From Mayamaea pseudoterrestris (Eukaryota), in assembly GCA_027923505.1 (NCBI GenBank), contig BROI01000011.1:992001-1042727 (forward strand): a DNA stretch of 50,727 nucleotides, written 5' to 3'. Position 1 is the first letter of the stretch, and each line of letters opens with the position of its first letter. Shown in pieces: positions 8,355 to 50,727 of this stretch. The notes below the pieces were generated by a model. That model did not search any database and was not told the origin of the DNA. It saw only the letters and a list, made by a program, of their open reading frames with translations. The translations under genes were made by a program, and so were the position numbers.

Positions 8355-9557
8355 CTACTGCAACCAACTCCATTGTGCTACAGTGTGTGGCCTTCAAACA
8401 CTACCCCCAATAGTCTTGTTCCATAAATTCTGTTCTGGCAATCCTTTGGGACATGTATGCAGTGACATTGGTGCATAACAATCATTCCCAGCTCACGTGT
8501 AGCATCAGTTCTTTCGGAGGGCAAAGATCCACACAGTAACCAGCTACATGGTGCTACAGAATAAGGCCTTTAATGACTACCCCCAAAAGTCTTGTTCCAT
8601 GAATTCTGTTCTGGCTATGCTTGAGGACAAGTATGCGGTGAAATTGGTGCATAACAATCATTCCCAGCTCACGTGTAGCATCAGTTCTTTTGGAGGGCAA
8701 AGATCCCCACAGTAACCAGCTACATGGTGCTACAGAATAAGGCCTTCAATAACTACCCCCAAAAGTCTTGTTCCATGAATTCTGTTCTGGCTATGCTTGA
8801 TGACAAGTATGCGGTGAAATTGGTGCATAACAATCATTCCCAGCTCACATGTAGCATCAGTTGTTGGGGAGGGCAAAGATCCACACAGTAACCAGCTACA
8901 CGGTGCTACCGGTACATGTGTGGCCTTTAATGACTACCCCTCATAGTCTTGTTCCATGAATGCTGTTCTGGCTATCCTTGGGGACACATATGCGGTGAGA
9001 TTGGTGCATAACAGTCATTCCCAGCTCACATGTAGCATCAGTTGTTGGGGAGGGCAAAGATCCACACAGTAACCAGCTACACGGTGCTACAGAATAAGGC
9101 CTTCAATGACTACCCCCCATAGTCTTGTTCCATGACTTCTGTTCTGGCTATGCTTGAGGACACATATGCGATGATATTGGTGCACAACAATCATTCCCAG
9201 CTCACGTGTAGCATCAGTTGTTGGGGAGGGCAAAGATCCACACAGTAACCAGCTACACGGTGCTACATGTGTGGCCTTTAATGACTACCCCTCATTCTTG
9301 TTCCATGAATGCTGTTCTGGCTATTCTTGGGGACACATATGTGGTGAGATTGGTGCATAACAGTCATTCCCAGCTCACATGTAGCATCAGTTGTTGGGGA
9401 GGGCAGAGATCCGCACAGTAACCAGCTACAAGGTGCTACAGTGTGTGGCCTTTAATGACTACCCCCAATAGTCTTGTTCCATGACTTCTGTTCTGGCTAT
9501 CCTTGGGGACACATATGCGGTGAGATTGGTGCATAACAATCATTCCCAGCTCACATA
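8355..9557. repeat. Satellite A: about 176-bp monomer, about 6.8 tandem copies
   Basis: The anchor GCA(A/G)AGATCC occurs at 8521, 8697, 8873, 9054, 9230 and 9403 (spacings 176, 176, 181, 176, 173). Copies differ by scattered substitutions. Confidence 0.95.
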
Positions 9558-9954
9558 GCTAACAAAGTTATAGTCTTTTCAATTAATGTCATGAAGCATG
9601 TCCAGAAAAACACATTCGCGGGGCGGGGAGGTGGTTTGTAGGATCAATGGCTTCACAAAGCCTGCATTGACTTTTGCGCGCTCCACATGCACAAACAAAC
9701 ACAGCCAAGCAATAGACAGTAAAATTGACCCTGGCCTTCAAAGCAACCTTTGATAAGAAATGCCAACAACTCTTAACTACAGGTAGATGGAACAAATGGA
9801 GAGGCTAGAGATTGCAGTATTCAAGTGGTAATTAATGACTCTTTGAGAGCACACTCCTACTGTAAAACAATGTGCTTTGGGATAGCTAGCATGGTCATTG
9901 TGAGGGGCCATTGCATGCACCTGAAGCTTGACGTCATCTACGTTGTAGTGGCAG

Positions 9955-12900
9955 TTTTGGCTGCAGGAACATCAGCATTGCCTGCTGAGCCCTCCAATAT
10001 CTTTCACATCATATAAGTTGTCATGATGGGCCATAAGTTGGTCAGTTGCACCTCAGTACCATCACCACGTATGCCACGGTGAGACTGAGCAGATCCAACA
10101 ACTTGTTGGATCTGCTAGCAATGCACCTCAAGTGGCAAGTGAGACTTCCAAAATGGCCAAAAGACCCCATAAAACAACAAAAATGGACTCTAACATTGAA
10201 TGGGGCTCATAGACTTGTCCATTTGGGTGTGGAAGCTATCACTATGCCCTGAATGCCCGCACATTCAACAACTGGTTGAATGTGCCAGCATTGCTCCCTT
10301 TTTGGCTGCAGGGATCATCAGCATTGCCTGCTGAGCCCTCCAATATCTTTCACATCATGTTTGTTGTCATGATGGGCCATAACTTAGTCATTTGCACTGC
10401 AGTATTCACCGCCACACATGCCATGGTGAGACTGAGCAGATCCAACAACTTGTTGGATCTGCCAGCAGTGCACCTCAACTGGCAAGCGAGACTTCCAAAA
10501 TGGCCTCCAGACCCCATAATACAACTAACATAGACTTTAACATTGAATGGGACTCATAGACTTATCCGTTTGGGTGTGGAAGCCATCACTATGCCCAGAA
10601 ACTCTGCACATTCAACAACTGGTTGAATGTGCCAGCCCTGCTCCCTTTTTGGCTGCAGGGATCATCAGCATTGCCTGCTGAGCCCTCCAATATCTTTCAC
10701 ATCATATAAGATGTCATGATGGGCCATAAGTTGGTCAGTTGCAGCTCAGTATCCATCACCATGTATGTCATGGTGAGACTGAACAGATCCAACAACTTGT
10801 TGGATCTGCTAGCGGTGCACCTCAAGTGGCAAATGAGACTTCCAAAATGGCCACCAGACCCCATAATACAACAAACATAGACTCTAACATTGAATGGGGC
10901 TCATAGACTTGTACATTTGGGTGTGGAAGCCATCACTATGCCCTGAAACTCCGCACATTCAACAACTGGTTGAATGTGCCAGCATTGCTCACTTTTTGGC
11001 TGCAGAAATCATCAGCATTGCCTGCTGAGCCCTCCAATATCTTTCACATCATATAAGTTGTCATGATGGGCCATAAGTTGGTCAGTTGCACTGCAGTTTT
11101 CCATCACCATGTATGCCATGGTGAGACTGAACAGATCCAACAATTTGTTGGATCTGCCAGTGGTGCACCTCAAGTGGCAAGCAAGACTTTTAAAATGGCC
11201 TCAAGACCCCATAATACAACTAACATAGACTCTAACATTGAATGGGGCTCATAGACTTATCTGTTTGGGTGTGGAAGCCATCACTATGCCCTGAAACTCC
11301 GCACATTCAACAACTGGTTGAATGTGCCAGCATTGCTTCCTTTTTTGGCTGCAGGGATCATCAGCATTGCCTGCTGAGCCCTCCAATATCTTTCACATCA
11401 TATAAGTTGTCATGATGGGCCATAAGTTGGTCAGTTGCACTGCAGTATCCATCACCACTTAGGTCATGGTGAGACTGAGCAGATCCAACAACTTGTTGGA
11501 TCTGCCAGCGGTGCACCTCAAGTGGCAAGTGAGACTTCCAAAATGGCCACCAGACCCCATAATACAACAAACATGGACTCTAACATTGAATGGGGCTCAT
11601 AGACTTGTACATTTGGGTGTGGAAGCCATCACTATGCCCTGAAACTCCGCACATTCAACAACTGGTTAAATTTGCCAGCATTGCTCCCTTTTTGGCTGCA
11701 GGGATCATCAGCATTGCCTGCTGAGCCCTCCAATATCTTTCACATCATATAAGTTGTCATGATGGGCCATAAGTTGGTCAGTTGCACTGCAGTATTCGTC
11801 ACCATGTATGCCATGGTGAGACTGAGCAGAATACAACAAACATGGACTCTAACATTGAATGGGGCTCATAGACTTGTACATTTGGGTGTGGAAGCCATCA
11901 CTATGCCCTGAAACTCCGCACATTCAACAACTGGTTAAATTTGCCAGCATTGCTCCCTTTTTGGCTGCAGGGATCATCAGCATTGCCTGCTGAGCCCTCC
12001 AATATCTTTCACATCATATAAGTTGTCATGATGGGCCATAAGTTGGTCAGTTGCACTGCAGTATTCGTCACCATGTATGCCATGGTGAGACTGAGCAGAC
12101 ATTGTTGGATCTGCCGTGCATGGCAAGTGAGACGCCAGACCCCATAATACAACTTACATAGACTCTGACATTGAATGGGGCTCATAGACTTATCCGTTTG
12201 GGTGTGGAAGCCATCACTATGCCTAGAAACTCCGCACATTCAACAACTGGTTGAATGTGCCAGCATTGCTCCCTTTTGACTGCAGGGATCATCAGCATTG
12301 CCTGCTGAGCCCTCCAATATCTGTCCCATCATATCAGTTGTCATGATGGGCCATAAGTTGGTCAGTTGCACTGCAGTATCCATCACCTTTTATGCCATGG
12401 TGAGACTGGCGCAACAACTTGTTGGATCTGCCAGCGGCACCTCAAGTGGCAAGCGAGACTTCCAAAATGGCTCCAGACCCCATAATACAACACACCACAG
12501 GACTCTAACAGTGCCATAGACTTGTCCGTTTGGGTGTGGAAGCCATCACTATGCCCTGAAACTCCGCAAATCAACAACTGGTTGAATGTGCCAGCTACAC
12601 TTGCTCCCTTTTTGGCTGCAGATATCATCAGCATTGCCTGCTGAGCCCTCCAGTATCTTTCACATCATATAAGTTGTCATGATGGGCCATAAGTTGGTCA
12701 GTTGCACTGCAGTATCCATCACCATGTATGCCATGGTGAGACTGAGCAGATCCAACAACTTGTTGGATCTGCCAGCGGTGCACCTCAAGTGGCAAGCGAG
12801 ACTTCCAAAATGGCTTCCAGACCCCATTATACAACAACCATGGACTCTAACAGTGAATGGGCTCATAGACTTGTCCGTTTGGGTGTGGAAGCCATCACTA

Positions 12901-15900
12901 TGCCCTGAAACTCCGCACATTAACAACTGGTTGAATGTGCCAGCATTGCTCCCTTTTTGGCTGCAGGGATCATCAGCATTGCCTGCTGAGCCCTCCAATA
13001 TCTTTCACATCATATAAGTTGTCATGATGGGCCATAAGTTGGTCAGTTGCACTGCAGTATCCATCACCATGTATGCCATGTTGAGACTGAGCAGATCCAA
13101 CAACTTGTTGGATCTGCCAGCGGTGCACCTCAAGTGGCAAGTGAGACTTCCAAAATGGCCACCAGACCCCATAATACAACAAATATGGACTCTAACAGTG
13201 AATGGGGCTCATAGACTTGTCCGTTTGGGTGTGGAAGCCATAACTATGCCCTGAAACTCCGCACATTCAACAACTGGTTGAGTGTGCCAGCATTGCTCCC
13301 TTTTTATCTGCAGGCATCATCAGCATTGCCTGCTGAGCCCTCCAATATCTTTTACATCATATAAGTTGTCATGATGGGCCATAAGTTGGTCAGTTGCACT
13401 GCAGTATCCATCACCATGTATGCCATGGTGAGACTGAGCAGATCCAGCAACTTGTTGGATCTGCCAGTAATGCACCTCAAGTGGCAAGCGAGACTTGCAA
13501 AATGGCTACCAGACCCCATAATACAACACACATGGACTCTAACTTTGAATGGGGTTCATAGACTAAAACATTTGGGTGTGGAAGCCATCACTATGCCCTG
13601 AAACTCCGCACATTCAACAACTGGTTGAATGTGCCAGCATTCCCTTTTTGCTGCATCAGCATTGCCTGCGGCCCAGTCACACATATATGTCAATGATGGG
13701 CCATAAGTTGGTTAGTTGCACTGCAGTATCCATCACCATGTATGCCATGGTGAGACTGAGCAGATCCAACAACTTGTTGGATCTGCTAGCAGTGCACCTC
13801 AAGTGGCAAGCGAGACTTCCAAAATGGCCTCAAGACCCCAAAATACAACAAACATGGACTCTAACATTGAATAGGGCTCATAGACATATCCGTTTGGGTG
13901 TGGAAGCCATCACTATGCCCTGAAACTCAGCACATTCAACAACTGGTTGAATGTGCCAGCCCTGCTCCCTTTTTGGCTGCAGGGATCATCAGCATTGCCT
14001 GCTGAGCCCTCCAATATCTTTCACATCATATAAGTTGTCATGATGGGCCATAAGTGGTCAGTTGCACTGCAGTATCCATCACCATGTATGCCATGTTGAG
14101 ACTGAGCAGATCCAACAACTTGTTGGATCTGCCAGCGGTGCACCTCAAGTGGCAAGTGAGACTTCCAAAATGGCCACCAGACCCCATAATACAACAAACA
14201 TGGACTCTAACATTGAATGGGGCTCATAGACTTATCCGTTTGGGTGTGAAAGCCATTACTATGCCCTGAAACTCCGCACATTCAACAACTGGTTGAATGT
14301 GCCAGCATTGCTTCCTTTTTTGGCTGCAAGGATCATCAGCATTGCCTGCTGAGCCCTCCACTATCTTTTACATCATATAAGATGTCATGATGGGCCATAA
14401 TTTGGTCAGTTGTACTGCTGAATCCATCACCATGTATGCCATGGTGAGACTGAGCATATCCAACAACGTGTTGGATCTGCCAGTGGTGCACCTCAAGTGG
14501 CAAGTGAGACTTCCAAAATGGCCACCAGACCCCATAATACAACAAACATGGACTCTAACATTGAATGGGGCTCATAGACTTGTCCGTTTGGGTGTGGAAG
14601 CCATCACTATGCACTGAAACTCCGCACATTCAACAACTAGTTGAATGTGCCAGCATTGCTCCCTTATTGGCTGCAGGGATCATCAGCATTGCCTGCTGAG
14701 CCCTCCACTATCTTTCACATCATATAAGTTGTCATGATGGGCCATAAGTTAGTTGGTCAGTTGCACTGCAGTATCCATCATCATGTATGCCATGGTGAGA
14801 CTGAGCAGATCCAACAACTTGTTGGATCTGCCAGCAGTGCACCTCAAGTGGCAAGTGAGACTTCCAAAATGGCCACCAGACCCCATAATACAACAAACAT
14901 AGACTCTAACATTGAATGGGGCTCATAGACTTGTGCATTGGGTGTGGAAGCCATCACTATGCCCTGAAACTCCGCACATTCAACAACTGGTTGAATGTGC
15001 CAGCATTGCTCCCTTTTTGGCTGCAGGGATCATCAGCATTGCCTGCTGAGCCCTCCAATATCTTTTACATCTTTTTTGTTGTCATGATGGGCCATAAGTG
15101 GTCAGTTGCACTGCAGTATCCATCACCATGTATGCCATGGTGAGACTGAGCAGATCCAACAACTTGTTGGATCTGCCAGCGGTGCACCTCAAGTGGCAAG
15201 TGAGACTTCCAAAATGGCCTCCAGACCCCATAATACAACTAACATGGACTCTAACATTGAATGGGGCTCATAGACTTGTCCATTTGGGTGTGGAAGCCAT
15301 CACTATGCCCTGAAACTCCGCACATTCAACAACTGATTGAATGTGCCAGCAGTGCTCCCTTTTTGGCTGCAGGGATCATCAGCATTGCCTGCTGAGCCAT
15401 CCAATATCTTTCACATCATGTTTGTTGTCATGATGGGCCATAAGTTGGTCAGTTGCACTGCAGTAAACATCACCATGTATGCCATGGTGAGACTGAGCAG
15501 ATCCAACAACTTGTTGGATCTGCTAGCAGTGCACCTCAAGTGGCAAGCGAGACTTCCAAAATGGCCTCAAGACCCCATAATACAACAATCATAGACTCTA
15601 ACATTGAATAGGGCTCATAGACGTATCCATTTGGGTGTGGAAGCCATCACTATGCCCTGAAACTCCGCACATTCAACAACTGGTTGAATGTGCCAGCCCT
15701 GCCCCCTTTTTTGCTGCAGGGATCATCAGCATTGCCTGCTGAGCCCTCCAATATCTTTCACTTCTTGTTTGTTGTCATGATGGGCCATAAGTTGGTCAGT
15801 TGCACTGCAGTATCCATCACCATGTATGCCATGGTGAGACTGAGCAGATCCAACAACTTGTTGGATCTGCCAGCGGTGCACCTCAAGTGGCAAGTGAGAC

Positions 15901-18900
15901 TTCCAAAATAGCCACCAGACCCCATAATACAACAAACATGGACTCTAACATTGAATGGGGCTCATAGACTTATCCGTTTGGGTGTGAAAGCCATTACTAT
16001 GCCCTGAAACTCCGCACATTCAACAACTGGTTGAATGTGCCAGCATTGCTTCCTTTTTTGGCTGCAGGGATCATCAGCATTGCCTGCTGTGCCCTCCAAT
16101 ATCTTTTACATCGTATAAGATGTCATGATGGGCCATAATTTGGTCAGTTGCACTGCTGTATCCATCACCATGTATGCCATGGTGAGACTGAGCATATCCA
16201 ACAACGTGTTGGATCTGCCAGCGGTGCACCTCAAGTGGCAAGTGAGACTTCCAAAATGGCCACCAGACCCCATATTACAACAAGCGTTGACTCTAACAGT
16301 GAATGGGGCTCATAGACTTGTCCATTTGGGTGTGGAAGCCATCACTATGCCCTGAAACTCCGCACATTCAACAACTGGTTGAATGTGCCAGCCCTGCCCC
16401 CTTTTTTGCTGCAGGGATCATCAGCATTGCCTGCTGAGCCCTCCAATATGTTTCACATCATCTTCATTGTCATGATGGGCCATAAGATGGTCAGTTGCAC
16501 CTCAGTATTCATCACCATGTATGCCATGGTGAGACTGAACTGACCCCACAACTTGTTGGATCTGCCAGCGGTGCACCTCAAGTGGCAAGTGAGACTTCCA
16601 AAATGGCCACCAGACCCCATAATACAATAAACATGGACTTTAACAGTGCATGGGACTCATAGACTTGTCCATTGGGTGTGGAAGCCATCACTATGCCCTG
16701 AAACTCCGCACATTCAACAACTGGTTGAATGTGCCAGCATTGCTCCCTTTTTGGCTGCAGGGATCATCAGCATTGCCTGCTGAGCCCTCCACTATCTTTT
16801 ACATCATATAAGATGTCATGATGGGCCATAAGATGGTCAGTTGCACCTCAGTGTCCATCACCATGTATGTTATGTTGAGACTGAGCAGATCCAACAATTT
16901 GTTGGATCTGCCAGTGGTGCACCTCAGGTGGCAAGTGAGACTTCCAAAATGGCCACCAGACCCCATAATACAACAAACATGGACTGTAACAGTGAATGGG
17001 ACTCATAGACTTGTTCTTTTAGGTGTGGAAGCCATCACTATGCCCTGAGACTCCGCACATTCAACAACTGTTTGAATGTGCCAGCCCTGCTCCCCTTTGT
17101 GGCTACAGGGATCATCAGCATTGCCTGCTGAGCCCTCCAATATATTTCATATCATATTGTTGTCATGATAAGCCATTAATCAGTTGCACCTCGGTATCCT
17201 TCACCATGTATGCCATGGAGGAGACTGAGCAGATCCAACAACTTGTTGGATCTGCCAGCGGTGCACCTCAAGTGGCAAGTGAGACTTCCAAAATGGCCTT
17301 CAGTCCCCATAATACAACTAACATGAACTGTAACAGTGAATGGGGCTCATAGACTTATCCATGTTGGGTGTGGAAGCCATCACTATGCCCTGAGACTCAG
17401 CACATTCAACAACTGGTTGAATGTGCCAGCCCTGCTCCCTTTGTGGCTGCAGGGATCATCAGCATTGCCTGCTGAGCCCTCCAATATATTACAAATAGGT
17501 TGGTTGTCATGATGGGCCATGAGTTGGTCAGTTGCACCTCAGTATCCTTCACCATGTATGCCATGGTGAGACTGAGCAGATCCAACAACTTGTTGGATCT
17601 GCCAGCAGTGCACCTCAAGTGGCAAGTGAGACTTCCAAAATGGCCTGCAGACCCCATAATACAACAAACATGGACTGTAACAGTGAATGGGAATCATTGA
17701 TTTGTCCATTGGGGTGTGGAAGCCATCGCTATGCCCTAAAACTCAGCAAATTCAACAACTGGTTGAATGTGCCAGCCCTGCTCGCTTTGTGGCTGCAGGG
17801 ATCATCAGCATAGTCTGCTGAGCCCTCCAATATCCTTAAATATGTTTCTTATCATGATGGGCCATAAGTTGGTAGTTGCACCTCAGTATCCATCACCGTG
17901 TATGCCATGGTGAGACTGAACTGACCCTACAACTTGTTGGATCTGCCAGCGGTGCACCTCAAGTGGCAAGTGAGACTTTAAAAATGGCCTCCAGACCCCA
18001 TAATACAACTAACATGGACTGTAACAGTGAATGGGACTCATAGACTTGTTCTTTTAGGTGTGGAAGCCATCACTATGCCCTGAGACTCCGCACATTCAAC
18101 AACTGGTTGAATGTGCCAGCCCTGCTCCCTTTTTGGTTGCAGGGATCATCAGCATTGCCTGCTGAGCCCTCCAATATGTTTCGTTTTATGTTTGTTGTCA
18201 TGATGGGCCATGAGTTGGTCAGTTGCACCTCAGTATCTTTACCATGTATGCCACGGTGAGAGTGAGCAGATCCAACAACTTGTTGGATCTGCCAGCAGTG
18301 CACCGCAAGTGGCAAGTGAGACTTCCAAAATGGTCTCCAGACCCCATATTCCAACTAACATGGACTTTACCAGTAAATGGAACTCAAAGACTTGTCCATT
18401 GGGGTGTGGAAGCCATCACTATGCCCTGAGACTCCGCACATTCAACAACTGGTTGAATGTGCCAGCCCTGCTCCCCTTTGTGGCTACAGGGATCATCAGC
18501 ATTGCCTGCTGAGCCCTCCAATATATTTCATATCATATTTGTTGTCATGATAAGCCATAAGAAATCAGTTGCACCTCGGTATCCTTCACCATGTATGCCA
18601 TGGTGTGACTGAGCCGACCCTACAACTTGTTGGATCTGCCAGCGGTGCACCTCAAGTGGCAAGTGAGACTTCCAAAATGGCCTGCAGACCCCATAATACA
18701 ACTAACATGGACTGTAATTGTGAATGGGATTCATAGACTTGTCCAATGGGGTGTGGAAGCCATCACTATGCCCTGAGACTCAGCACATTCAACAACTGGT
18801 TGAATGTGCCAGCCCTGCTCCCTTTGTGGCTGCAGGGATCATCAGCATTGCCTGCTGAACCCTCCAATATATTTCAAATAGGTTGGTTGTCATGATGGGC

Positions 18901-40400: not shown

Positions 40401-43400
40401 TGTTTGCCACTGCTAGGTTGGTGTTCGGCAGTTGGGTAGTAGATACCAGCAACTACTGCGGATTTAAAGGCAGGGAACAAGCAGGAGGCAAATGCACATA
40501 GTGAATGCACTATACACTATCCATTTGTGACCTTGGATCATGCCCCAAGCCAGTTTACAAAGAGGTTGTGGGGATCTGATGTTTGCCACTGCTAGGATAG
40601 GCAGTCACATAGTACCTGCCAACAGAAGCTGCTGACCTGAAGGCCAAGGCAAGCAGGAGGCTGATGCGCAAACCAAATTCACCAAGGAGGTATGTCTTGT
40701 GCCCTTGGATCATGCACAGTGGCTGTACGCATAGAGTGTGTGGGCACTTCATGTTTGCCACTGCTAGGTTGGTGTTCGGCAGTTGGGTAGTACATACCAG
40801 CAACTCCTGCAGATCTGGAAGCAGGGAACAAGCAGGAGGCAATTGCACAAAGTTAATGCGCTATACACTATCCATTTGTGACCTTGGATCATGCCCCAGC
40901 CAGTTTACAAAGAGATTGTGGGGATCTGATGTTTGCCACTGCTAGGGTAGGCAGTCACATAGTACCTGCCAAAAGAAGCTGCTGACCTGAAGGCAAAAGG
41001 CAAGCAGGAGGCTGATGCGCAAAACAAATTCACCAAGGAGGTATGTCTTGTGCCCTTGGATCATGCACAGTGGCTGTACGCATAGAGTGTGTGGGCACTT
41101 CATGTTTGCCACTGCTAGGTTGGTGTTCGGCAGTTGGGTAGTACATACCAGCAACTTCTGCGGATCTGGAAGCAGGCAACATGCAGGAGGCAAATGCACA
41201 AAGTGAATGCACTATACAATATCCATTTGTGACCTTGGATCATGCCCCAAGCCAGTTAACAAAGAGATTGTGGGGATCTGATGTTTGCCACTGCTAGGGT
41301 AGGCAGTCACATAGTACCTGCTAACTGAAGCTGCTGACCTGAAGGCAAAAGGCAAGCAGGAGGCTGATGCGCAAAACAAATTCACCAAGGAGGTATGTCT
41401 TGTGCCCTCGGATCATGCACAGTGGCTGTACGCATAGTGTGTGTGGGCACTTCATGTTTGCCACTGCTAGGTTGGTGTTCGGCAGTTGGGTAGTACATAC
41501 CAGCAACTTCTGCGGATCTGGAAGCAGGAAACAAGCAGGAGGCAAATGCACAAAGTGAATGCACTATACAATATCCATTTGTGACCTTGGATCATGCCCC
41601 AAGCCAGTTTACAAAGAGATTGTGGGGATCTGATGTTTGCCACTGCTAGGGTAGGCAGTCACATAGTACCTGCTAACTGAAGCTGCTGACCTGAAGGCAA
41701 AAGGCAAGCAGGAGGCTGATGCGCAAAACAAATTCACCAAGGATGTATGTCTTGTGCCCTCGGATCATGCACAGTGGCTGTACGCATAGAGTGTGTGGGC
41801 ACTTCATGTTTGCCACTGCTAGGTTGGTGTTCGGCAGTTGGGTAGTACATACCAGCAACTCCTGCGGATCTGGAAGCAGGGAACAAGCAGGAGGCAAATG
41901 CACATAGTGAATGCACTATACACTATCCATTTGTGACCTTGGATCATGCCCCAAGCCAGTTTACAAAGAGGTTGTGGGGATCTGATGTTTGCCACTGCTA
42001 GGATAGGCAGTCACATAGTACCTGCCAACTGAAGCTGCTGACCTGAAGGCAAAAGGCAAGCAGGAGGCTGATGCACAAAACAAATTCACCAAGGAGGTAT
42101 GTCTTGTGCCCTTGGATCAAGCACAGTGGCTGTATGCATAGAGTGTGTGGGCACTTCATGTTTGCCAATGCTAGGTTGGTGTTTGGCAGTTGGGTATACA
42201 TACCAGCAACTTCTGCGGATCTGGAAACAGGCAACAAGCAGGAGGCAAATGAACAAAGTGAATGCACTATAAAATTTTCATTTGTGACCTTGGATCATCC
42301 CCCAAGCCAGTTTACAAAGAGGTTGTGGAGATCTGATGTTTGCCACTGCTAGGATAGGCAGTCACATAGTACCTGCCAACAGAAGCTGCTGACCTGAAGG
42401 CCAAGGCAAGCAGGAGGCTGATGCGCAAACCAAATTCACCAAGGAGGTATGTCTTGTGCCCTCGGATCATGCACAGTGGCTGTACGCATAGAGTGTGTGG
42501 GCACTTCATGTTTGCCACTGCTAGGTTGGTGTTCGGCAGTTGGGTATACATACCAGCAACTTCTGCGGATCTGGAAGCAGGCAACAAGCAGGAGGCAAAT
42601 GCACATAGTGAATGCGCTAAACACTAACCATTGGTGACCTTGGATCATGCCCCAGCCAGTTGACAAAGAGGTTGTGGGGATCTGATGTTTGCCACTGCTA
42701 GGATAGGCAGTCACATAGTACCTGCCAACAAAAGCTGCTGACCTGAAGGCCAAGGCAAGCAGGAGGCTGATGCGCAAACCAAATTCACCTAGGAGGTATG
42801 TCTTGTGCCCTTGGATTATGCACAGTGGCTGCACACATAGAGTGTGTGGGCACTTCATGTTTGGCACTGCTAGGTTGGTGTTTAACAGTTGGGTAGTACA
42901 TACCAGCAACTCCTGCAGATCTGGAAGCAGGGAACAAGCAGGAGGCAATTGCACAAAGTGAATGCGCTATACACTATCCATTGGTGACCTTGGATCATGC
43001 CCCAGCCAGTTGACAAAGAGGTTGTGGGGATCTGATGTTTGCCACTGCTAGGATAGGCAGTCACATAGTACCTGGCAACTGAAACTGCTGACCTGAAGGC
43101 CAAGACAAGCAGGAGGCTGATGCGCAAACTAAATTCACCAAGGAGGTATGTCTTGTGCCCTTGGATCAAGCACAGTGGCTATACGCATACAAAGTGAATG
43201 CACTATACAATATCCATTTGTGACCTTGGATCATGCCCCAAGCCAGTTTACAAAGAGATTGTGGGGATCTGATGTTTGCCACTGCTAGGGTAGGCAGTCA
43301 CATAGTACCTGCTAACTGAAGCTGCTGACCTGAAGGCAAAAGGCAAGCAGGAGGCTGATGCGCAAAACAAATTCACCAAGGATGTATGTCTTGTGCCCTC

Positions 43401-44827
43401 GGATCATGCACAGTGGCTGTACGCATAGAGTGTGTGGGCACTTCATGTTTGCCACTGCTAGGTTGGTGTTCGGCAGTTGGGTAGTACATACCAGCAACTC
43501 CTGCGGATCTGGAAGCAGGGAACAAGCAGGAGGCAAATGCACATAGTGAATGCACTATACACTATCCATTTGTGACCTTGGATCATGCCCCAAGCCAGTT
43601 TACAAAGAGGTTGTGGGGATCTGATGTTTGCCACTGCTAGGATAGGCAGTCACATAGTACCTGCCAACTGAAGCTGCTGACCTGAAGGCAAAAGGCAAGC
43701 AGGAGGCTGATGCACAAAACAAATTCACCAAGGAGGTATGTCTTGTGCCCTTGGATCAAGCACAGTGGCTGTATGCATAGAGTGTGTGGGCACTTCATGT
43801 TTGCCAATGCTAGGTTGGTGTTTGGCAGTTGGGTATACATACCAGCAACTTCTGCGGATCTGGAAACAGGCAACAAGCAGGAGGCAAATGAACAAAGTGA
43901 ATGCACTATAAAATTTTCATTTGTGACCTTGGATCATCCCCCAAGCCAGTTTACAAAGAGGTTGTGGAGATCTGATGTTTGCCACTGCTAGGATAGGCAG
44001 TCACATAGTACCTGCCAACAGAAGCTGCTGACCTGAAGGCCAAGGCAAGCAGGAGGCTGATGCGCAAACCAAATTCACCAAGGAGGTATGTCTTGTGCCC
44101 TCGGATCATGCACAGTGGCTGTACGCATAGAGTGTGTGGGCACTTCATGTTTGCCACTGCTAGGTTGGTGTTCGGCAGTTGGGTATACATACCAGCAACT
44201 TCTGCGGATCTGGAAGCAGGCAACAAGCAGGAGGCAAATGCACATAGTGAATGCGCTAAACACTAACCATTGGTGACCTTGGATCATGCCCCAGCCAGTT
44301 GACAAAGAGGTTGTGGGGATCTGATGTTTGCCACTGCTAGGATAGGCAGTCACATAGTACCTGCCAACAAAAGCTGCTGACCTGAAGGCCAAGGCAAGCA
44401 GGAGGCTGATGCGCAAACCAAATTCACCTAGGAGGTATGTCTTGTGCCCTTGGATTATGCACAGTGGCTGCACACATAGAGTGTGTGGGCACTTCATGTT
44501 TGGCACTGCTAGGTTGGTGTTTAACAGTTGGGTAGTACATACCAGCAACTCCTGCAGATCTGGAAGCAGGGAACAAGCAGGAGGCAATTGCACAAAGTGA
44601 ATGCGCTATACACTATCCATTGGTGACCTTGGATCATGCCCCAGCCAGTTGACAAAGAGGTTGTGGGGATCTGATGTTTGCCACTGCTAGGATAGGCAGT
44701 CACATAGTACCTGGCAACTGAAACTGCTGACCTGAAGGCCAAGACAAGCAGGAGGCTGATGCGCAAACTAAATTCACCAAGGAGGTATGTCTTGTGCCCT
44801 TGGATCAAGCACAGTGGCTATACGCAT
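19454..44827. repeat. Satellite C: 352-bp unit (diverged dimer of 173+179 bp), about 72 copies; near-identical core about 20000-33800, divergent copies 38150-44827
   Basis: The ORF track repeats with an exact 352-bp period. TGTTTGCCACTGCTAGG occurs twice per unit (20018, 20191, 20370), as do GCAGGAGGC and GGATCATGC. Confidence 0.98.
41550..44827. repeat. Tandem duplication of a 1639-bp block of satellite C (41550-43188 and 43189-44827)
   Basis: Diagnostic variants and ORFs recur at +1639 (41673/43312, 41998/43637, 42436/44075, 42882/44521). The junction TATACGCAT|ACAAAGTGAATG lies at 43188/43189. Confidence 0.92.
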
Positions 44828-45576
44828 GCCATTGACAGGTGCAGAGTCTCAATGGTGCAAAAAGGACTGCCTGGAGGCTGACACCATGGGAACGGCCTCC
44901 ACTGTGGGCATGGCCAACAATATGAGTTGTAGATTCTGACCTGTCAAACGCCCCATGCCCTGGCCACCCAAATACCCAATGAGTCAGGCAAAACCTGTCC
45001 AGGGTAAGCCATTGACAGGTACAGAGTCTCAAATGATGCAAAAATGACTTCCTGGAGGCTGACACCATGGGTACGGCCTCCACTGTGGATATGGCCAACA
45101 CCAAAAGTTGTAGATTCTGACCTGTCATACGCCCCATTCCCTGGCTACCCAAATACCCAATGAGTCAGGCAAAACTTGTCCAGGGTATGCCATTGCCTGG
45201 TGCAGAGTCTCAAATGGCGCAAAAAGGACTGCCTGGAGGCTGACACGAAGGGTACGGCCTCCACTGTGGGTATGACCAACACCACAAGTTGTAGATTCTG
45301 ACCTGTCAAACATCCCATGCCCTGGCCACCCAATTACCCAATGAGTCAGGCAAAACATGTCCAGGGTATGCCATTGACAGGTGCAGAGTCTCAAATGGTG
45401 CATAAAGGACTGCTGGAGGCTGACACCATGGGTACGGCCTCCACTGTGGGTATGGCCAACACGACAAGTTGTAGATTCTGACCTGTCAAATGCCCCATGC
45501 CCTGGCCACCCAAATACCCAATGAGTCAGGCAAAACATGTCCCGGGTATGCAATTGATAGGTGCAAAGTCTCAAAT
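44828..45576. repeat. Satellite D: 180-181-bp monomer, about 4.2 copies
   Basis: The anchor GC(C/A)ATTG occurs at 44828, 45008, 45189, 45370 and 45550, with conserved AGTTGTAGATTCTGACCTGTCA and CCCAATGAGTCAGGCAAAAC in each copy. Confidence 0.95.
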
Positions 45577-48303
45577 CCCCTGAGAAGCCTACCATCTTGT
45601 AGCGCAGCCTGAATAATTATGTTGGCACCATTCTGGTGTATTGTGGGCATCTACAGGGCTTGCTGTAGGGGCATTTGAATGTCACGGCATCTGCAGGCTG
45701 AGACTGGTGACAAGTTGTCACCAAATACATTGCCATCCCCTGAGACACCCGTCAAGCCTACCATGTTGTAGCGCAGCATGAATAATGATGGTGGCACCAT
45801 TCTGGTGTATTGTGGGCACCTACAGGGCTTGCTGTAGGGGCGTTTGAATGTCACGGCATCTGCGGGCTGAGACTGGTGAAAAGTTGTCACCAAATACATT
45901 GCCATCCCCTGATACACCAGCCAAGCCTACCATGTTGTAGCGCAGCCTGAATAATGATGGTTGCACCATTCTGGTGTATTGTGGGCACCTACAGGGCTTG
46001 CTGTAGGGGCAATTGAATGTCACGGCATCTGCGTGCTGAGACTGGTGACAAGTTGTCACCAGATACATTGCCATCCCCTGAGACAACCGCCAAGCCTACC
46101 ATCTTGTAGCGCAGCCTAAATAATGATGTTGGCACCATTCTGGTGTATCGTGGGCACCTACAGGGCTTGCTGTAGGGGCGTTTGAATGTCACGGCATCTG
46201 TGGGCTGAGACTGGTGACAAGTTGTCACCAAATACATTGCCATCCCCTGAGACACCAGCCAAGCCTACCATCTTGTAGCGCAGCCTGGATAATGATTTGT
46301 GGCACCATTCTGGTGTATTTCGGGCACCTACAGGGCTTTCTGTTGGGGCGTTTTGAATGTCACGGCATCCGCGGGCTGAGACTGGTGACAAGTTGTCACC
46401 AAATACATTGCCATCCCCTGAGACAACAGCCAAGCCTACCATCTTGTAGCGCAGCCTGAGCAATTATGTTGGCACATTCTGGTGTATTTTGGGCACCTAC
46501 AGGGCTTGCAGTAGGGGCGTTTGAATGTCACGGCATCTGCGGGCTGAGACTGGTGACAAGTTGTCACCAAATACATTGCCATCCCCTGAGACAACCGCCA
46601 AGCCTACCATCTTGTAGCGCAGCCTGAATAATGATGGTGGCACCATTCTGGTGTATTTTGGCCACCTACAGGGCTTTCTGTAGGGGCGTTTGAATGTCAC
46701 GGCAGCCGCGGGCTGAGACTGGTGACAAGTTGTCACCAAATACATTGCCACCCTCTGAGACAACAGCCAAGCCTACCATCTTGTAGCGCAGCTTGAGCAA
46801 TGATGTTGGCACCATTCTGGTGTATTTTGAGCACCTACAGGGCTTGCTGTAGGGGCGTTTAAATGTCACGGCATCTGCGGGCTGAGAGTGGTGACAAGTT
46901 GTCACCAAATACATTGCCATCCCCTGAGACAACCGCCAAGCCTATCATCTTCTAGCGCAGCCTGAATAATGATGTTGGCACCATTCTGGTGTATTGTGGG
47001 CACCTACAGGGCTTGCTGTAGGGGCGTTTGAATGTCACGGCATCTGCAGGCTGAGACTGGTGACAATGTTGTCACCAAATACATTGCCATCCCCTGAAAC
47101 ACCAGCCAAGCCTACCATCTTGTAGCGCAGCCTTTTTAATCATGGTGGCACCATTCTGGTGTATTTTGGCCACCTACAGGGCTTGCTGTAGGGGCGTTTG
47201 AATGTCACGGCATCTGTGGGCTGAGACTGGTGACAAGTTGTCACCAAATACATTGCCATCCCCTGAGACACCAGCCAAGCCTACCATCTTGTAGCGCAGC
47301 CTGATCAATGATGGTGGCACCATTCTGGTGTATTGTGGGCATCTACAGGGCTTGCTGTAGGGGCGTTTGAATGTCACAGCATCTGCAGGCTGAGACTGGT
47401 GACAATGTTGTCACCAAATACATTGCCATCCCCTGAGACACCAGCCAAGCCTACCATCTTGTAGCGCAGCCTTTTCAATCATGGTGGCACCATTCTGGTG
47501 TATTTTGGCCACCTATAGGGCTTGCTGTAGGGGCGTTTGAATGTCACGGCATCTGTGGGCTGAGACTGGTGACAAGTTGTCACCAAATACATTGCCATCC
47601 CCTGAGACACCAGCCAAGCCTACCATCTTGTAGCGCAGCCTGATCAATGATGGTGGCACCATTCTGGTGTATATTGGGCATTTACAGGGCTTGCTGTAGG
47701 GGCGTTTGAATGAGACTGGTGACAAGTTGTCACCAGATACATTGCCATCCCCTGAGACACCAGTCAAGCCTACCATCTTGTAGCGTAGCCTGAATAATGA
47801 TGTTGGCACCTTTCTGGTGTATTTTGGGCATCTACAGGGCTTGCTGTAGGGGCGTATGAATGTCATGGCATCTGTGGGCTGAGACTGGTGACAAGTTGTC
47901 ACCAAATACATTGCCATCCCCTGAGACACCAGCCAAGCCTACCATCTTGTAGCGCAGCCTGATCAATGATGTTGGCACCATTCTGGTGTATTTTGGGCTT
48001 CTACAGGGCTTGCTGTAGGGGCGTATGAATGGCACGGCATCCGCGGGCTGAGACTGGTGACAAGTTGTCACCAGATACATTTCCATCCCCTGAGACAAAA
48101 ACCAAGCCTACCATCTTGTAGCACAGCCTGATCAATGATGTTGGCACCATTCTGGTGTATTTTGGGCATCTACAGGGCTTGCTGTAGGGGCGTTTGAATG
48201 TCACGGCATCTGCGGGCTGAGACTGGTGACAAGTTGTCACCAAATACATTGCCATCCCCTGAGACACCAGCCAAGCATACTATCTTGTAGCGCAGCTTAA
48301 ATA
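45577..48303. repeat. Satellite E: 169-bp monomer, about 16 copies
   Basis: ORF-track period of 169 (45651, 45820, 45989, 46158). GAGACTGGTGACAAGTTGTCACCAAATACATTGCCATCCCCTGAGAC is conserved across copies. Confidence 0.97.
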
Positions 48304-48312
48304 AGAAGGTTA

Positions 48313-50727
48313 GCACCTCATGTATACCCTGTTCAAAGGCGGCAATGGCTAAAAAAACAATCACAGCCATAGTTTGATTGGTTAGGATTCATAGACTGCA
48401 CTGTTGTTCTATTTGGCCCATCTACTCCCACAATTTACCTAACACTTGAGCGTGCCAGGTTTGTTTGTCTTTGTAGGCCTCATGGATAGCTTGGCCGATG
48501 GTGTCAATGTTGGTAATTGATGGGGATGCCTAGCGGACCTGGTGGTGTAGTGTGGTGACGTACGGGATACTTAGCTATGTGGAAGCAAGCATGTCTACTC
48601 CCAAATCTTGAAGGATTTGCATGACCGTCAAGGTTGTAGTGGATGTTTGACTTTATAAAAAGCTTTTTGAAAAGTGGGAATGCTTCACATGATGGGGATG
48701 GCCAACGTTTTGCGGGTGCTGCCGCTGCTGCCGCTGCTGCTGTGTGACATACAGTCGCACAAAAGACAGCGTATCTACTCCTGTTTTGCCAGGAACACAT
48801 AAGTTGTCCATCATTGAATGTGTCATAGAAGCTCAAACATACCTTGTTGAAAGGTGGCATTGGCTAAAATGACAATCAGAGCCATAGTTTGATTGGTTTG
48901 GATTCATAGACTGCGCTGTTGTTCTATTTGGCCCATCTACTCCCTCAGCTTTCCCAAAACTTGAGCTTGCCAGGTTTGTTTGTCTTTGTAGGCCTCATGG
49001 ATAGCTTGGCCGATGGTGGCAATGTTGGTAATTGATGGGGATGCCCAGCGGACCTGGTGGTGTAGTGTGGTGACGTATGGGATACTTAGCTATGTGGAAG
49101 CTAGCATGTCTACTCACAAATCTTGAAGGATTTGCATGACCGCCAAGGTTGTAGTGGATGATTGACTTTATAAAAAGCTTTTTGAAAGATGGGAATGCTT
49201 CACATGATGGGGATGGCCAAAGTTTTGCGGGTGCTGCCGCTGCTGCTGTGTGACATACGGTCGCACAAAATACAGCGTATCTACTCCTGTTTTGCCAGGA
49301 ACACATAAGTTGTCCAACATTGTATGTGTCATAGTACCTCATGTTTACCCTGTTGAAAGGTGGCAATGGCTAAAAAGACAATCACAGCCATAGTTTGATT
49401 GGTTAGGATTCATAGACTGCGCTGTTGTTCTATTTGGCCAATCTACTCCCACAGCTTTCCCAAAACTTGAGCTTGCCAGGTTTGTTTGTCTTTGTAGGCC
49501 TCATGGACAGCTTGGCCGATGGTGGCAATGTTGGTAATTGATGGGGATGCCCAGCGGACCTGGTGGTGTGATGTGGCGACATACGGGATACTTAGCTATG
49601 TGGAAGCTAGCATGTCTACTCACAAAACTTGAAGGATTTGCATGACCGCCAAGGTTGCAGTGGATAATTGACTTTACAAAAGGCTTTTTGAAAGGTGGGA
49701 ATGCTTCAAATGATGGGGACGACCTAAGTTCTGTGGGTGCTGCCGCTGCTGCTGCGGGGCATACAGTTGCACAAAATACAGCGTATCTACTCCTGTTTTG
49801 CCAGGAACACATAAGTTGTCCAACATTGTATGTGTCATAGTACCTCATGTATACCCTGTTGAAAGGTGGCAATGGCTAAAAAGACAATCACAGCCATAGT
49901 TTGATTGGTTCGGATTCATAGACTGCGCTGTTGTTCTATTTGGCCCATCTACTCCCACAGCTTTCCCAAAACTTGAGCTTGCCAGGTTTGTTTGTCTTTG
50001 TAGGCCTCATGGATAGCTTGGCCGATGGTGGCAATGTTGGTAATTGATGGGGATGCCCAGCGGACCTGGTGGTGTAGTGTGGTGACGTATGGGATACTTA
50101 GCTATGTGGAAGCAAGCATTTCTACTCCCAAATCTTGAAGCATTTGCATGACCGCCAAGGTTGTAGTGGATGAATGACTATATTAAAAGCTTTTTGAAAG
50201 GTGGGAATGCTTCACATGATGGGGATGGCCAAAGTTTTGCAGGTGCTGCCGCTGCTGCTGTGTGACATACAGTCGCACAAAATACAGTATATCTACTCCT
50301 GTTTTGCCAGGAACACATGAGTTGTCCAACATTGAATGAGTCATAGTTGCTCACGTATATCTTGTTGAAAGGTGGCATTTGCTAAAATGACAGTCAGAGC
50401 CATAGTTTGATTGGTTTGGATTCATAGACTGCGCTGTTGTTCTATTTGGCCCATCTACTCCCACAGCTTTCCCAAAACTTGAGCTTGCCAGGTTTGTTTG
50501 GTTTTGTTGGCCTCATTGATAGCTTGGCCAATGGTGGCAATGTTGGTAATTGATGGGGATGCCCAGCGGACCTGGTGGTGTGATGTGGCGACATACGGGA
50601 TACTTAGCTATGTGGAAGCTAGCATGTCTACTCACAAAACTTAAAGGATTTGCATAACCGCCAAGGTTGTAGAGGTTGATTGACCTTACCAAAAGCTTTT
50701 TGAAAGGTGGGAATGCTTCAAATGATG
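48313..50727. repeat. Satellite F: 506-bp unit (highly diverged trimer of about 173+171+162 bp), at least 4.7 copies, running off the window end
   Basis: Period of 506 (ORF starts 48860, 49366, 49872, 50378). Internal motifs recur three times per unit: G(G/A)TGG(C/G)AATG at 49015, 49188, 49359 (next 49521) and TCTACTC at 49109, 49280, 49442. Confidence 0.93.

What the first reader, a model, noticed from the sequence alone, without database searches (positions are those of the whole stretch)
8355..50727. Six different satellite families side by side, all built on a nucleosome-sized (162-181 bp) monomer
Seen: the units are 176, 347 (170+177), 352 (173+179), 181, 169 and 506 (173+171+162) bp. 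The families have clearly different sequences yet share one base period, and four of the five junctions (B/C, C/D, D/E, E/F) have essentially no spacer. Established: centromeric satellites in plants and animals (alpha satellite 171 bp, Arabidopsis CEN178) have mono- or di-nucleosome periods, whereas CENH3-mapped centromeres of the diatom Phaeodactylum tricornutum are short, low-GC, non-repetitive regions. Inference: this is a chromatin-organising satellite library, possibly a satellite-type regional centromere or heterochromatic knob, in a lineage where such centromeres are not the known model. The arrays are roughly half GC, not AT-rich.
Basis: partly seen in the sequence, partly recalled or inferred. 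Interest (0 to 1): 0.85.

Follow-up and report, generated by a model that had tools for sequence, protein, structure and literature searches.

The report
Six-family satellite DNA block, diatom
Beside ordinary genes of a pennate diatom lies at least 42 kb of non-coding DNA made of six unrelated tandem repeats that all share a unit of about 173 bases and look like long-methylated, silenced chromatin; whether it is also a centromere cannot be decided here.

Summary
Window 8375-50727 is six head-to-tail satellite arrays with periods 176, 347 (170+177), 352 (173+179), 181, 169 and 506 (173+171+162, the middle third only weakly related). No similarity between families exceeds shuffles. Four junctions have zero spacer.

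New here:
- All six families are CpG-depleted (o/e 0.14-0.38 against 1.15 in the gene flank).
- Remaining CpG sites mutate by transition six times faster than other C/G sites. This is the mark of long-standing cytosine methylation.
- In two DNA-like public runs, contigs of families A, B and C pile up at tens to about 2000 times the flank depth. These families are high-copy beyond this locus.
- Family B carries one perfect palindromic box per sub-monomer, with compensatory arm changes.

Best reading: methylated satellite heterochromatin, a "satellite library" with a nucleosome-length period. This is ordinary in plants and animals, but my four literature searches found no description of it in diatoms.

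The centromere reading is untested. No CENH3 data or genome is available, and another satellite block lies at a chromosome end on the same piece.

The scan noted similar blocks before on other DNA of this genome.

The parts
1..8054 (.). Ordinary gene-dense flank with intron-poor diatom genes: Rsa3-like 420-953 (+), HAD_SAK_2 1269-1922 (-), Serinc 2209-3576 (+), M14 carboxypeptidase 3760-5466 (-), ORF 5294-6739 (+), ORF 7154-8053 (-). CpG o/e is 1.15.
8055..8374 (.). Boundary stretch of 320 bases. It is already CpG-depleted (o/e 0.12), resembles no family, and is low-copy (one X1 contig of depth 152 against a flank of about 94).
8375..9554 (+). Satellite A: 176-bp monomer, 6.7 copies, 91-96% identical to consensus. 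It ends at consensus position 122.
9555..9954 (.). A/B spacer of 400 bases. It resembles no family, has CpG o/e 0.37, and is about single-copy (one X1 contig of depth 99).
9955..19453 (+). Satellite B: 347-bp dimer (170+177), about 27 units, 88-98% identical to consensus, with identity falling towards C. One perfect palindromic box sits in each sub-monomer. An exact 269-bp tandem duplication lies at 11561-12099.
19454..44827 (+). Satellite C: 352-bp dimer (173+179), about 71 units. It starts with about 100 bases of degenerate C. A core of about 40 units (19.9-33.9 kb) is about 100% identical to the consensus. The right part (34-44.8 kb) is 82-99% identical, with self-similarity at lags of about 1.64 and 1.76 kb.
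44826..45576 (+). Satellite D: 181-bp monomer, 4.2 copies, 94-97% identical to consensus.
45577..48310 (+). Satellite E: 169-bp monomer, 16 units plus partial units at both ends, mostly 93-98% identical to consensus. It contains the palindrome core ACAAGTTGT.
48311..50727 (+). Satellite F: 506-bp unit (173+171+162), 4.8 copies, 90-94% identical to the reference unit. It is cut by the window end at unit position 384.

Best explanation
This is a block of constitutive, CpG-methylated satellite heterochromatin in a pennate diatom nuclear genome. It is a local sample of a genome-wide 'library' of unrelated high-copy satellites.

Shown:
- Six non-coding head-to-tail arrays in one orientation.
- Base units of 162-181 bp, with dimer and trimer higher-order units.
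- Abrupt mid-unit junctions with 0-7 bases of overlap.
- Strong CpG loss and ongoing CpG-to-TpG/CpA decay in all six families.
- Very high contig depth for families A, B and C in two public DNA-like runs.

Inferred:
- The arrays are packed in regularly spaced nucleosomes and are cytosine-methylated.
- New arrays grow by unequal exchange and are homogenised locally. The identical core of C would be the youngest layer, and the diverged tail of C with A, B and F would be older.
- Unit lengths that fit the nucleosome spacing are the ones that persist. That would explain why unrelated sequences converge on about 173 bp.
- The zero-spacer junctions come from illegitimate or microhomology-mediated joining of arrays.

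The block need not have a sequence-specific function. Its chromosomal role (pericentromere, subtelomere or interstitial knob) stays open.
For: Structure:
- Periods and sub-monomers.
- Families unrelated to one another: 0 of 40 cross-family pairs above z 3.5 and 0 of 15 family pairs above z 3.5.
- Zero-spacer junctions.

Non-coding:
- No Rfam family and no tRNA.
- None of the periods is a multiple of 3.
- 18 stop-to-stop ORFs of at least 110 aa. Of the 5 that I scanned, none has a Pfam match above its cut-off.

Methylation signature:
- CpG o/e is 0.22, 0.14, 0.22, 0.20, 0.34 and 0.38 in A-F, against 1.15 in the flank and 0.91-1.44 in six genes.
- TpG+CpA o/e is 1.49-1.74 in the arrays against 1.23 in the flank.
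- Transitions away from consensus at CpG sites are 8.6% per site, against 1.4% at other C/G sites. They are higher at CpG in each of the six families, while transversions are equal at 1.0% and 1.1%.

Abundance, as summed contig word depth:
- Run X1: 79-106 on the flank, 12.7-16.4 thousand on A, 0.28-33.7 thousand on B, and 120-189 thousand on the C bins where contigs were placed.
- Run X2: 27-40 on the flank, 0.7-1.0 thousand on A, up to 3.3 thousand on B, and 6.7-18.9 thousand on C.
- Many contigs run on into letters not found at this locus.
- One X4 contig joins A-like letters to E-like letters, an adjacency absent from the window. The families therefore occur in other contexts.

Period:
- The nucleosome repeat length measured in another photosynthetic stramenopile, Nannochloropsis oceanica, is 178-179 bp (PMC12744764, passages read). 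This is compatible with the 162-181 bp units.
Against: - Methylation is inferred from mutation patterns, not measured.
- The tool itself warns that summed contig depth is not a copy number. Overlapping short contigs inflate it, and X1 and X2 differ three- to seven-fold in satellite-to-flank ratio.
- The monomers show no 10-bp WW periodicity above dinucleotide shuffles (196 of 300 shuffles reach the observed sum). Nothing in the sequence itself points to nucleosome positioning, and no diatom nucleosome repeat length was found.
- The roughly 40 identical C units could be a product of read polishing or array collapse in a long-read assembly rather than a young layer.
- Within F, the sub-monomers have diverged almost to noise (F1/F2 z 1.1-2.9). 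'Unrelated' families could therefore still share one ancient 173-bp ancestor, in which case the common period is inherited rather than convergently selected.
Confidence: 0.7

Rival explanations
1. The block is, or includes, the functional centromere of this chromosome. CENH3 nucleosomes would sit on the homogeneous core of satellite C, and the older diverged satellites around it would form the pericentromere, as in human alpha-satellite or Arabidopsis CEN178 centromeres.
For: - C has a core of about 40 units about 100% identical to the consensus, flanked on the right by units 82-99% identical and by other satellites. That is the layered picture typical of satellite centromeres.
- C is the most abundant of the three families measured.
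- Monomers are nucleosome-length with higher-order repeats.
- Family B has a dyad-symmetric box in every sub-monomer. This recalls the non-B-DNA or CENP-B-box features of centromeric satellites (recalled from general knowledge, not tested).
- No Phaeodactylum-type low-GC island competes for the role within this window.
Against: - No CENH3, Hi-C or whole-genome data could be used.
- CENH3-mapped centromeres of P. tricornutum are low-GC and lack repeats (10.1101/096016, abstract and passages). Predicted centromeres of F. solaris are low-GC without highly repeated elements (10.1101/2021.11.10.468027, passages).
- Earlier scan notes report at least seven other satellite blocks with other family mixes, one at a chromosome end on this same piece (unchecked by me). 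Such blocks are therefore not confined to one site per chromosome.
- The identical core may be an assembly artefact.
Confidence: 0.2
2. The block is subtelomeric heterochromatin at the far end of a chromosome of about 1 Mb, whose telomere was not assembled.
For: - The window ends inside family F, with a unit cut at position 384 of 506. The odd window length suggests that the contig ends there (inference).
Against: - No telomere-type repeat occurs anywhere in the window (0 matches with up to 2 mismatches).
- A contig break inside a long satellite array is equally expected at a centromere or an interstitial knob.
- Other blocks in earlier notes lie between ordinary genes.
Confidence: 0.3
3. The six families are not independent inventions. 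They descend from one ancient satellite of about 173 bp, so the shared period is inherited rather than imposed by chromatin.
For: - Sub-monomers of a single family have already diverged to the noise level while keeping their length (F1/F2 z 1.1-2.9, F2/F3 z 3.1-3.5).
- The best cross-family scores (D/F3 z 3.5, C1/D z 3.3) are just as strong.
- A short word, CATAAGTTG, is shared by B, D and F on the same strand (27 of 500 shuffles give any such 9-mer).
- A 10-mer centred on it, allowing one mismatch, occurs in 5 of 6 families (13 of 200 shuffles reach this).
Against: - Overall sharing of 6- and 7-mers among families equals the dinucleotide-shuffle expectation.
- No cross-family alignment is significant after 40 tests.
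- The motif hints have p of about 0.05-0.07 and were noticed post hoc.
Confidence: 0.25
4. The arrangement (order, sizes, identical units) is largely an artefact of assembling or polishing long arrays.
For: - About 40 consecutive C units are 100% identical, while all other arrays differ by 2-12% from consensus.
- There is an exact 269-bp duplication inside B.
Against: - Independent short-read contigs of two runs cover A, B and the edges of C.
- Those contigs include locus-specific B variants at about single-copy depth (bins 11755-12368 and 12983-13596) and the single-copy A/B spacer.
- The periods, sub-monomers and CpG decay do not depend on array length.
Confidence: 0.1

Closest known systems
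Satellite-DNA heterochromatin and the 'satellite library' of plants and animals (adjacent unrelated tandem families with monomers of about 170 or 340 bp)
   Same: Long head-to-tail non-coding arrays. Monomers of one or two nucleosome lengths. Higher-order units. Several unrelated families side by side. High copy number. Methylation-type CpG decay.
   Different: The host is a small-genome diatom, where I found no published satellite description. GC is about 50% rather than AT-rich. There is no 10-bp WW periodicity. The library concept itself is recalled from general knowledge, not from a paper read here.
Human alpha satellite (171 bp, higher-order repeats) and Arabidopsis CEN178 layered centromeres
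   Same: A period of about 170-180 bp, higher-order repeats, and a homogeneous core flanked by diverged layers (family C).
   Different: CENH3 occupancy is unknown. Six families share one locus. Blocks occur at several kinds of site in this genome according to earlier notes. The arrays seen are tens of kb, not Mb.
PpSat1 and PpSat2 satellites of the oomycete Phytophthora parasitica (PMC7290008, passages read)
   Same: Satellite families in a stramenopile. [quoted passage not shown] Those arrays also sit at scaffold ends.
   Different: Different lineage and sequences. PpSat2 is 142 bp. Two families rather than a stack of six.
Centromeres of Phaeodactylum tricornutum (10.1101/096016) and predicted centromeres of Fistulifera solaris (10.1101/2021.11.10.468027)
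   Same: The same group of organisms (pennate diatoms), and non-coding regions.
   Different: Those centromeres are short, low-GC (clusters of 100-bp windows at or below 32% GC) and repeat-free. Here 1 of 5063 windows is that low, and the region is entirely tandem repeats at 46-52% GC.

Membership tests
Satellite DNA | Long head-to-tail tandem arrays of a defined monomer | tested here: met
   Six arrays of 0.75 to 25 kb, all copies in one orientation.
Satellite DNA | High copy number in the genome | tested here: inconclusive
   Contig depth for A, B and C is tens to about 2000 times the flank in runs X1 and X2. The tool states that this is not a copy number.
Satellite DNA | Non-coding | tested here: met
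   No Rfam family or tRNA. No period is a multiple of 3. None of the 5 ORFs scanned, out of 18 of at least 110 aa, has a Pfam match above its cut-off.
Nucleosome-phased satellite | Monomer length equal to one nucleosome repeat | tested here: inconclusive
   Ten sub-monomers are 162-181 bp. The only stramenopile nucleosome repeat length found is 178-179 bp in Nannochloropsis. No diatom value was found.
Nucleosome-phased satellite | Intrinsic rotational positioning signal (10-bp WW periodicity) | tested here: not met
   196 of 300 dinucleotide shuffles reach the observed summed power. No single family is significant.
Nucleosome-phased satellite | Phased nucleosomes in vivo (MNase-seq) | not testable with these tools
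   No MNase data are available.
CpG-methylated heterochromatin | CpG depletion with TpG/CpA excess relative to neighbouring genes | tested here: met
   CpG o/e is 0.14-0.38 in all six families against 1.15 in the flank. TpG+CpA o/e is 1.49-1.74 against 1.23.
CpG-methylated heterochromatin | Excess of transitions at CpG sites among repeat copies | tested here: met
   8.6% against 1.4% per site, in each of six families. Transversions are equal.
CpG-methylated heterochromatin | Direct detection of 5-methylcytosine or repressive histone marks | not testable with these tools
   No bisulfite, nanopore-signal or ChIP data are available.
Satellite-type regional centromere | CENH3/CENP-A occupancy | not testable with these tools
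   No ChIP data are available.
Satellite-type regional centromere | One such site per chromosome | not testable with these tools
   No genome is held. Earlier notes report a second block at a chromosome end on this same piece (unchecked).
Satellite-type regional centromere | Homogeneous core flanked by diverged layers | tested here: inconclusive
   The C core of about 40 units is about 100% identical and the tail is 82-99%. The identity may be a polishing or collapse artefact.
Phaeodactylum-type diatom centromere | Cluster of 100-bp windows with GC at or below 32%, and no repeats | tested here: not met
   1 of 5063 windows, at 6961 in the gene flank. The region is all repeats.
Subtelomeric satellite | Adjacency to telomere repeats | tested here: inconclusive
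   No telomere-type repeat is in the window, but the window ends inside family F, so what follows is unknown.

The most novel reading that the evidence does not exclude
This diatom has satellite-based regional centromeres. CENH3 would sit on the homogeneous 352-bp dimer array of family C (or its counterpart on other chromosomes), flanked by methylated older satellites. Centromere type would then have switched within the pennate diatoms, between the repeat-free low-GC kind of Phaeodactylum and a plant- or animal-like satellite kind.
Probability: 0.17. Interest if true: 0.85.

Novelty: new member of a known kind. Interest (0 to 1): 0.5.

Why it matters
Diatom genomes are usually described as poor in satellites, and their mapped centromeres are short, low-GC and repeat-free.

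A small diatom genome with abundant, methylated, nucleosome-length satellites stacked in multi-family blocks matters in three ways:
- It shows that the classic satellite heterochromatin of plants and animals also exists in this lineage.
- It gives a compact system (a genome of about 30 Mb, if the species lead is right) for asking why unrelated satellites converge on one unit length.
- It makes the question "do all diatoms share Phaeodactylum-type centromeres?" directly testable by one CENH3 mapping experiment.

It also warns that such arrays are probably collapsed in current diatom assemblies, or break them.

Tried and rejected
- **Whole-genome mapping.** No genome is held for this window.
- **Look-alikes in earlier scan notes.** Sequence look-ups for C, for D-F and for A-B found none. 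The 'near' look-up found nothing. This says little, because the index samples short words.
- **Metagenome scan.** I scanned with an 18-base box conserved between both halves of C. It returned 11 loci, each with a single match, and all 11 match only over the 18-22-base seed. These are chance hits, so no relatives were found.
- **Rfam, tRNA and telomere-motif scans.** Nothing found.
- **Pfam on ORFs inside the arrays.** I scanned 5 of the 18 ORFs. There were only two sub-threshold matches, VHL at 19.4 bits and Mpo1-like at 18.1 bits, which I rejected.
- **A protein-binding box shared by all families.**
  - k-mer sharing among families is at the dinucleotide-shuffle expectation for k = 6 and 7.
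  - The ACAA-N-TTGT and CATAAGTTG hints have p of about 0.05-0.07. I kept them only as something noticed.
  - An earlier mononucleotide-shuffle test overstated the excess and is superseded.
- **Dyad symmetry.** Only B is significant. The other five families are within shuffles.
- **Expression.**
  - No RNA holder is listed.
  - Runs X3 and X4, of unknown kind, cover the flank genes at depth 2-9. They gave only a few contigs of depth 2-4 on the satellites.
  - Because their kind is not on record, I draw no conclusion on transcription.
- **Read laying.** The first request was one base over the size limit. The third, 5001-23400, was laid. D, E and F therefore remain unmeasured.
- **Species.** I could confirm only 'pennate diatom' from the Serinc search. 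The best named hits were 57-60% identical (Synedra, Fistulifera, Nitzschia, Seminavis), and an unnamed hit was 88% identical.
Full report
**Observation**

Tandem Repeats Finder reports five families at the stated places:
- A: 8375-9556, period 176, 6.7 copies.
- B: 9955-19453, period 347.
- C: 19556-44827, period 352/350, with a 173-base sub-period at 63% matches.
- D: 44826-45576, period 181, 4.2 copies.
- E: 45585-48304, period 169.

The sixth family, F, has a period above TRF's limit. The repeat finder found five copies spaced 515, 506, 506 and 506 bases from 48311 to the window end. A k-mer lag scan gives the same periods and shows no periodicity in the first 8 kb.

I built consensus units from 6, 20, 38, 3, 12 and 1 units for A-F. 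The F 'consensus' is therefore a single unit.

- B1/B2 z 10.5.
- C1/C2 z 15.9.
- F1/F3 z 7.3.
- F2/F3 z 3.5.
- F1/F2 z 2.9.

The dimers are solid. The trimer reading of F is only partly supported.

No family resembles another:
- 15 family pairs under stringent scoring are all at z <= 3.5.
- 40 cross-family sub-monomer pairs under permissive scoring, on both strands and in all rotations, are all at z <= 3.5.

**Junctions**

- The 102 bases between B and C are a degenerate piece of C (z 7.9).
- B stops at its consensus position 78, and C-like sequence starts at the next base.
- C (position 271) and D (position 1) overlap by 2 bases.
- D is followed at once by 8 bases of an E tail and then by full E units.
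- E and F overlap by up to 7 bases.
- Only A and B are separated. The 400-base spacer resembles no family and is about single-copy in run X1.

**Surroundings and taxon**

Bases 1-8054 carry closely packed, apparently intron-poor genes:
- A Serinc protein.
- An M14 carboxypeptidase with its N-terminal domain.
- A HAD_SAK_2 protein.
- An Rsa3-like ORF.
- Two ORFs without Pfam matches.

The Serinc protein finds diatom proteins throughout. The best named hits are 57-60% identical and come from pennate diatoms (Synedra, Fistulifera solaris, Nitzschia, Seminavis robusta). One unnamed protein is 88% identical. The host is a pennate diatom.

I could not verify that. The genome paper for that species (PMC9724779; passages found by term search) reports 30.6 Mb in 41 contigs with an N50 of 1,068 kb. 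It reports 19% repeats, mainly copia elements. Its main text never uses the words satellite, tandem, centromere or telomere. Its supplements were not looked at.

**What the block is**

The arrays are non-coding:
- No Rfam family.
- No tRNA.
- No period divisible by three.
- 18 stop-to-stop ORFs of at least 110 aa. Of the 5 that I scanned, none has a Pfam match above its cut-off.

The clearest new result is compositional:
- CpG observed/expected is 1.15 in the flank and 0.91-1.44 in six genes.
- It is 0.12 in the 320 bases before A.
- It is 0.22, 0.14, 0.22, 0.20, 0.34 and 0.38 in A-F, and 0.37 in the A/B spacer.
- TpG+CpA rises from 1.23 in the flank to 1.49-1.74 in the arrays.
- The switch lies at 8054/8055, directly next to a gene with CpG o/e 1.44.

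A tandem array is statistically one unit repeated. I therefore also looked at differences among copies:
- At consensus CpG sites, 8.6% of aligned positions show a transition, against 1.4% at other C/G sites.
- The excess appears in each of the six families (6.0-21% against 0.5-3.7%).
- Transversions do not differ (1.0% against 1.1%).

This is the pattern left by deamination of 5-methylcytosine. Methylation itself is inferred, not measured.

**Abundance**

A search for public runs with the unique flank found two DNA-like holders, X1 and X2, and three others. All are kept as contigs.

Contigs of X1-X4 were laid on 5001-23400.

| Region | X1 summed word depth | X2 summed word depth |
|---|---|---|
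| Flank | 79-106 | 27-40 |
| A | 12.7-16.4 thousand | 0.7-1.0 thousand |
| B | 285 to 33.7 thousand | 17 to 3.3 thousand |
| C (three bins where contigs were placed) | 120-189 thousand | 6.7-18.9 thousand |

The four bins of identical middle C units have depth 0, which shows that each contig is placed once.

The tool warns that this figure is no copy number, and overlapping short contigs inflate it. Even so, the ratios far exceed what the 6.7, 27 and 71 copies in the window could give. They are roughly 140-175 for A, up to 360 for B and 1,300-2,000 for C in X1, and three to seven times lower in X2.

Other details:
- Some B bins lie near single-copy depth (285 in X1 at 11755-12368; 17 in X2 at 12983-13596). 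These units carry locus-specific variants, which also supports the assembly there.
- Many contigs run on into letters not present at this locus.
- One X4 contig joins A-like letters to letters that match family E over 17 consecutive bases. That adjacency does not exist in the window.

The families are therefore used in other combinations elsewhere, which is what a 'library' means. D, E and F were not measured.

**Internal structure**

Identity to consensus:
- A: 91-96%.
- B: 88-98%, falling towards the C junction.
- D: 94-97%.
- E: mostly 93-98%.
- F: 90-94% to the reference unit.
- C: after the degenerate start, about 40 consecutive units (19.9-33.9 kb) are about 100% identical to the consensus. 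The right-hand 11 kb is 82-99% identical.

The right-hand part of C has self-similarity at lags of 1,639 and 1,757 bases, a higher-order repeat of about five dimers.

The identical core is either a very young expansion or an effect of polishing or collapse in a long-read assembly. I cannot tell which. An exact 269-base tandem duplication interrupts B at 11561-12099.

**Tests of the nucleosome idea**

The ten sub-monomers measure 176, 170, 177, 173, 179, 181, 169, 173, 171 and 162 bases.
- A measured nucleosome repeat length of 178-179 bp exists for Nannochloropsis oceanica (PMC12744764, passages).
- No diatom value turned up.
- The monomers carry no 10-bp WW periodicity above dinucleotide shuffles: 196 of 300 shuffles reach the observed sum, and no family is significant.

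The claim therefore rests on length alone.

**Dyad symmetry**

Only family B has a hairpin-forming box beyond chance. Its best 40-base DNA fold is -15.0 kcal/mol against -7.9 +/- 1.5 in shuffles, and 0 of 40 shuffles reach it. The other five families are within shuffles.

The box occurs once per sub-monomer. The B1 form has 10-base arms and 18 exact copies. The B2 form has 12-base arms and 15 exact copies. Both are perfect palindromes. They differ at two arm positions, each matched by the complementary change in the other arm.

Whether that block is family B is unknown.

**Shared motif**

The palindrome core ACAA-N-TTGT occurs 39 times in the window: once in the flank, 23 times in B, twice in D and 13 times in E.

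The word CATAAGTTG is shared by the B, D and F consensus on the same strand. Against dinucleotide-preserving shuffles this is weak:
- 27 of 500 shuffles give such a 9-mer.
- 13 of 200 shuffles give a 10-mer centre reaching five families.
- General k-mer sharing at k = 6 and 7 is at expectation.

I record it as a lead only.

**Centromere, subtelomere or neither**

Nothing here measures kinetochore function.

For a centromere:
- The layered look of C and its abundance.
- Higher-order repeats.
- The dyad box of B.

Against:
- The mapped centromeres of P. tricornutum are low-GC and lack repeats (10.1101/096016, abstract and passages).
- The predicted centromeres of F. solaris are similar (10.1101/2021.11.10.468027, passages).
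- Earlier notes of this scan list at least seven other satellite blocks in this genome with other family mixes. Some lie between genes, some at window ends, and one at a chromosome end 951,763 letters before this window on the same piece (not checked by me).

The window has no telomere-type repeat. It also has no Phaeodactylum-type low-GC cluster: 1 of 5,063 100-bp windows is at or below 32% GC. It ends inside F, and its odd length suggests that the contig ends there (inference).

My estimates overlap, because they answer different questions. About 0.2 that the block contains the functional centromere. About 0.3 that it is subtelomeric. The rest goes to interstitial or pericentromeric heterochromatin.

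**Independent origin or common descent**

The sub-monomers of F have drifted to the noise level while keeping their length. The absence of cross-family similarity therefore does not prove independent origin. One ancient 173-bp satellite could underlie all six families (about 0.25).

**Comparison and novelty**

The block behaves like classic satellite heterochromatin of plants and animals.

Within stramenopiles, satellites have been characterised in Phytophthora parasitica. [quoted passage not shown]

Four full-text searches found no paper describing satellite DNA families in a diatom:
- diatom + satellite DNA + centromere.
- diatom + telomere-to-telomere + centromere + tandem repeat.
- diatom genome + satellite + tandem repeats + monomer.
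- diatom + satDNA.

The library lacks most subscription journals, so this is not proof of absence.

I class the block as a new member of a known kind. The same kind of block was noted several times before by this scan on other DNA of this genome, with the same conclusion and the same open question.

Noticed in passing
window 6179-6181: An in-frame TGA separates two ORFs in the same frame (5294-6181 and 6182-6739), which would otherwise be one ORF of about 480 codons. Run X1's contig reads G at 6181 (TGG, Trp), while run X2 agrees with the window. This could be an allelic nonsense variant, a consensus error or a small intron.
   Followed up: partly
window 9955-19453 (for example 10090, 10260 and every 170/177 bases): Family B carries one perfect palindromic box of about 25 bases per sub-monomer. 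The B1 and B2 forms differ at two arm positions with matching changes in the opposite arm. The fold is -15.0 kcal/mol against -7.9 in shuffles. It may be a binding site for a dimeric protein, a cruciform former, or arm-to-arm copying.
   Followed up: partly
window B, D and E arrays; consensus of B, D and F: The palindrome core ACAA-N-TTGT occurs in B (23 times), D (2 times) and E (13 times). CATAAGTTG is shared by B, D and F on one strand. Support against dinucleotide shuffles is weak, with p of about 0.05-0.07.
   Followed up: partly
window 19900-33900: About 40 consecutive 352-bp units are about 100% identical to the consensus, while neighbouring arrays differ by 2-12%. This is either a very young expansion or a polishing or collapse artefact of the assembly.
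   Followed up: no
window 11561-12099: An exact (100%) tandem duplication of 269 bases breaks the 347-bp register of family B. Contig depth in this bin is near single-copy.
   Followed up: partly
window 9318-9413 (run X4 contig): A 319-base contig of run X4 joins family-A-like letters to letters matching family E over 17 bases. This A/E adjacency does not exist in the window, so the same families adjoin differently elsewhere in the genome.
   Followed up: no
window 8054/8055: The CpG boundary is very sharp. The gene at 7154-8053 has CpG o/e 1.44, and the next 320 bases have 0.12. The gene's 5' end faces the satellite block.
   Followed up: no
window 19454-19555: The first 102 bases of C are a degenerate, GC-rich (0.62) C fragment that keeps more CpG (o/e 0.42) than the arrays.
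   Followed up: no
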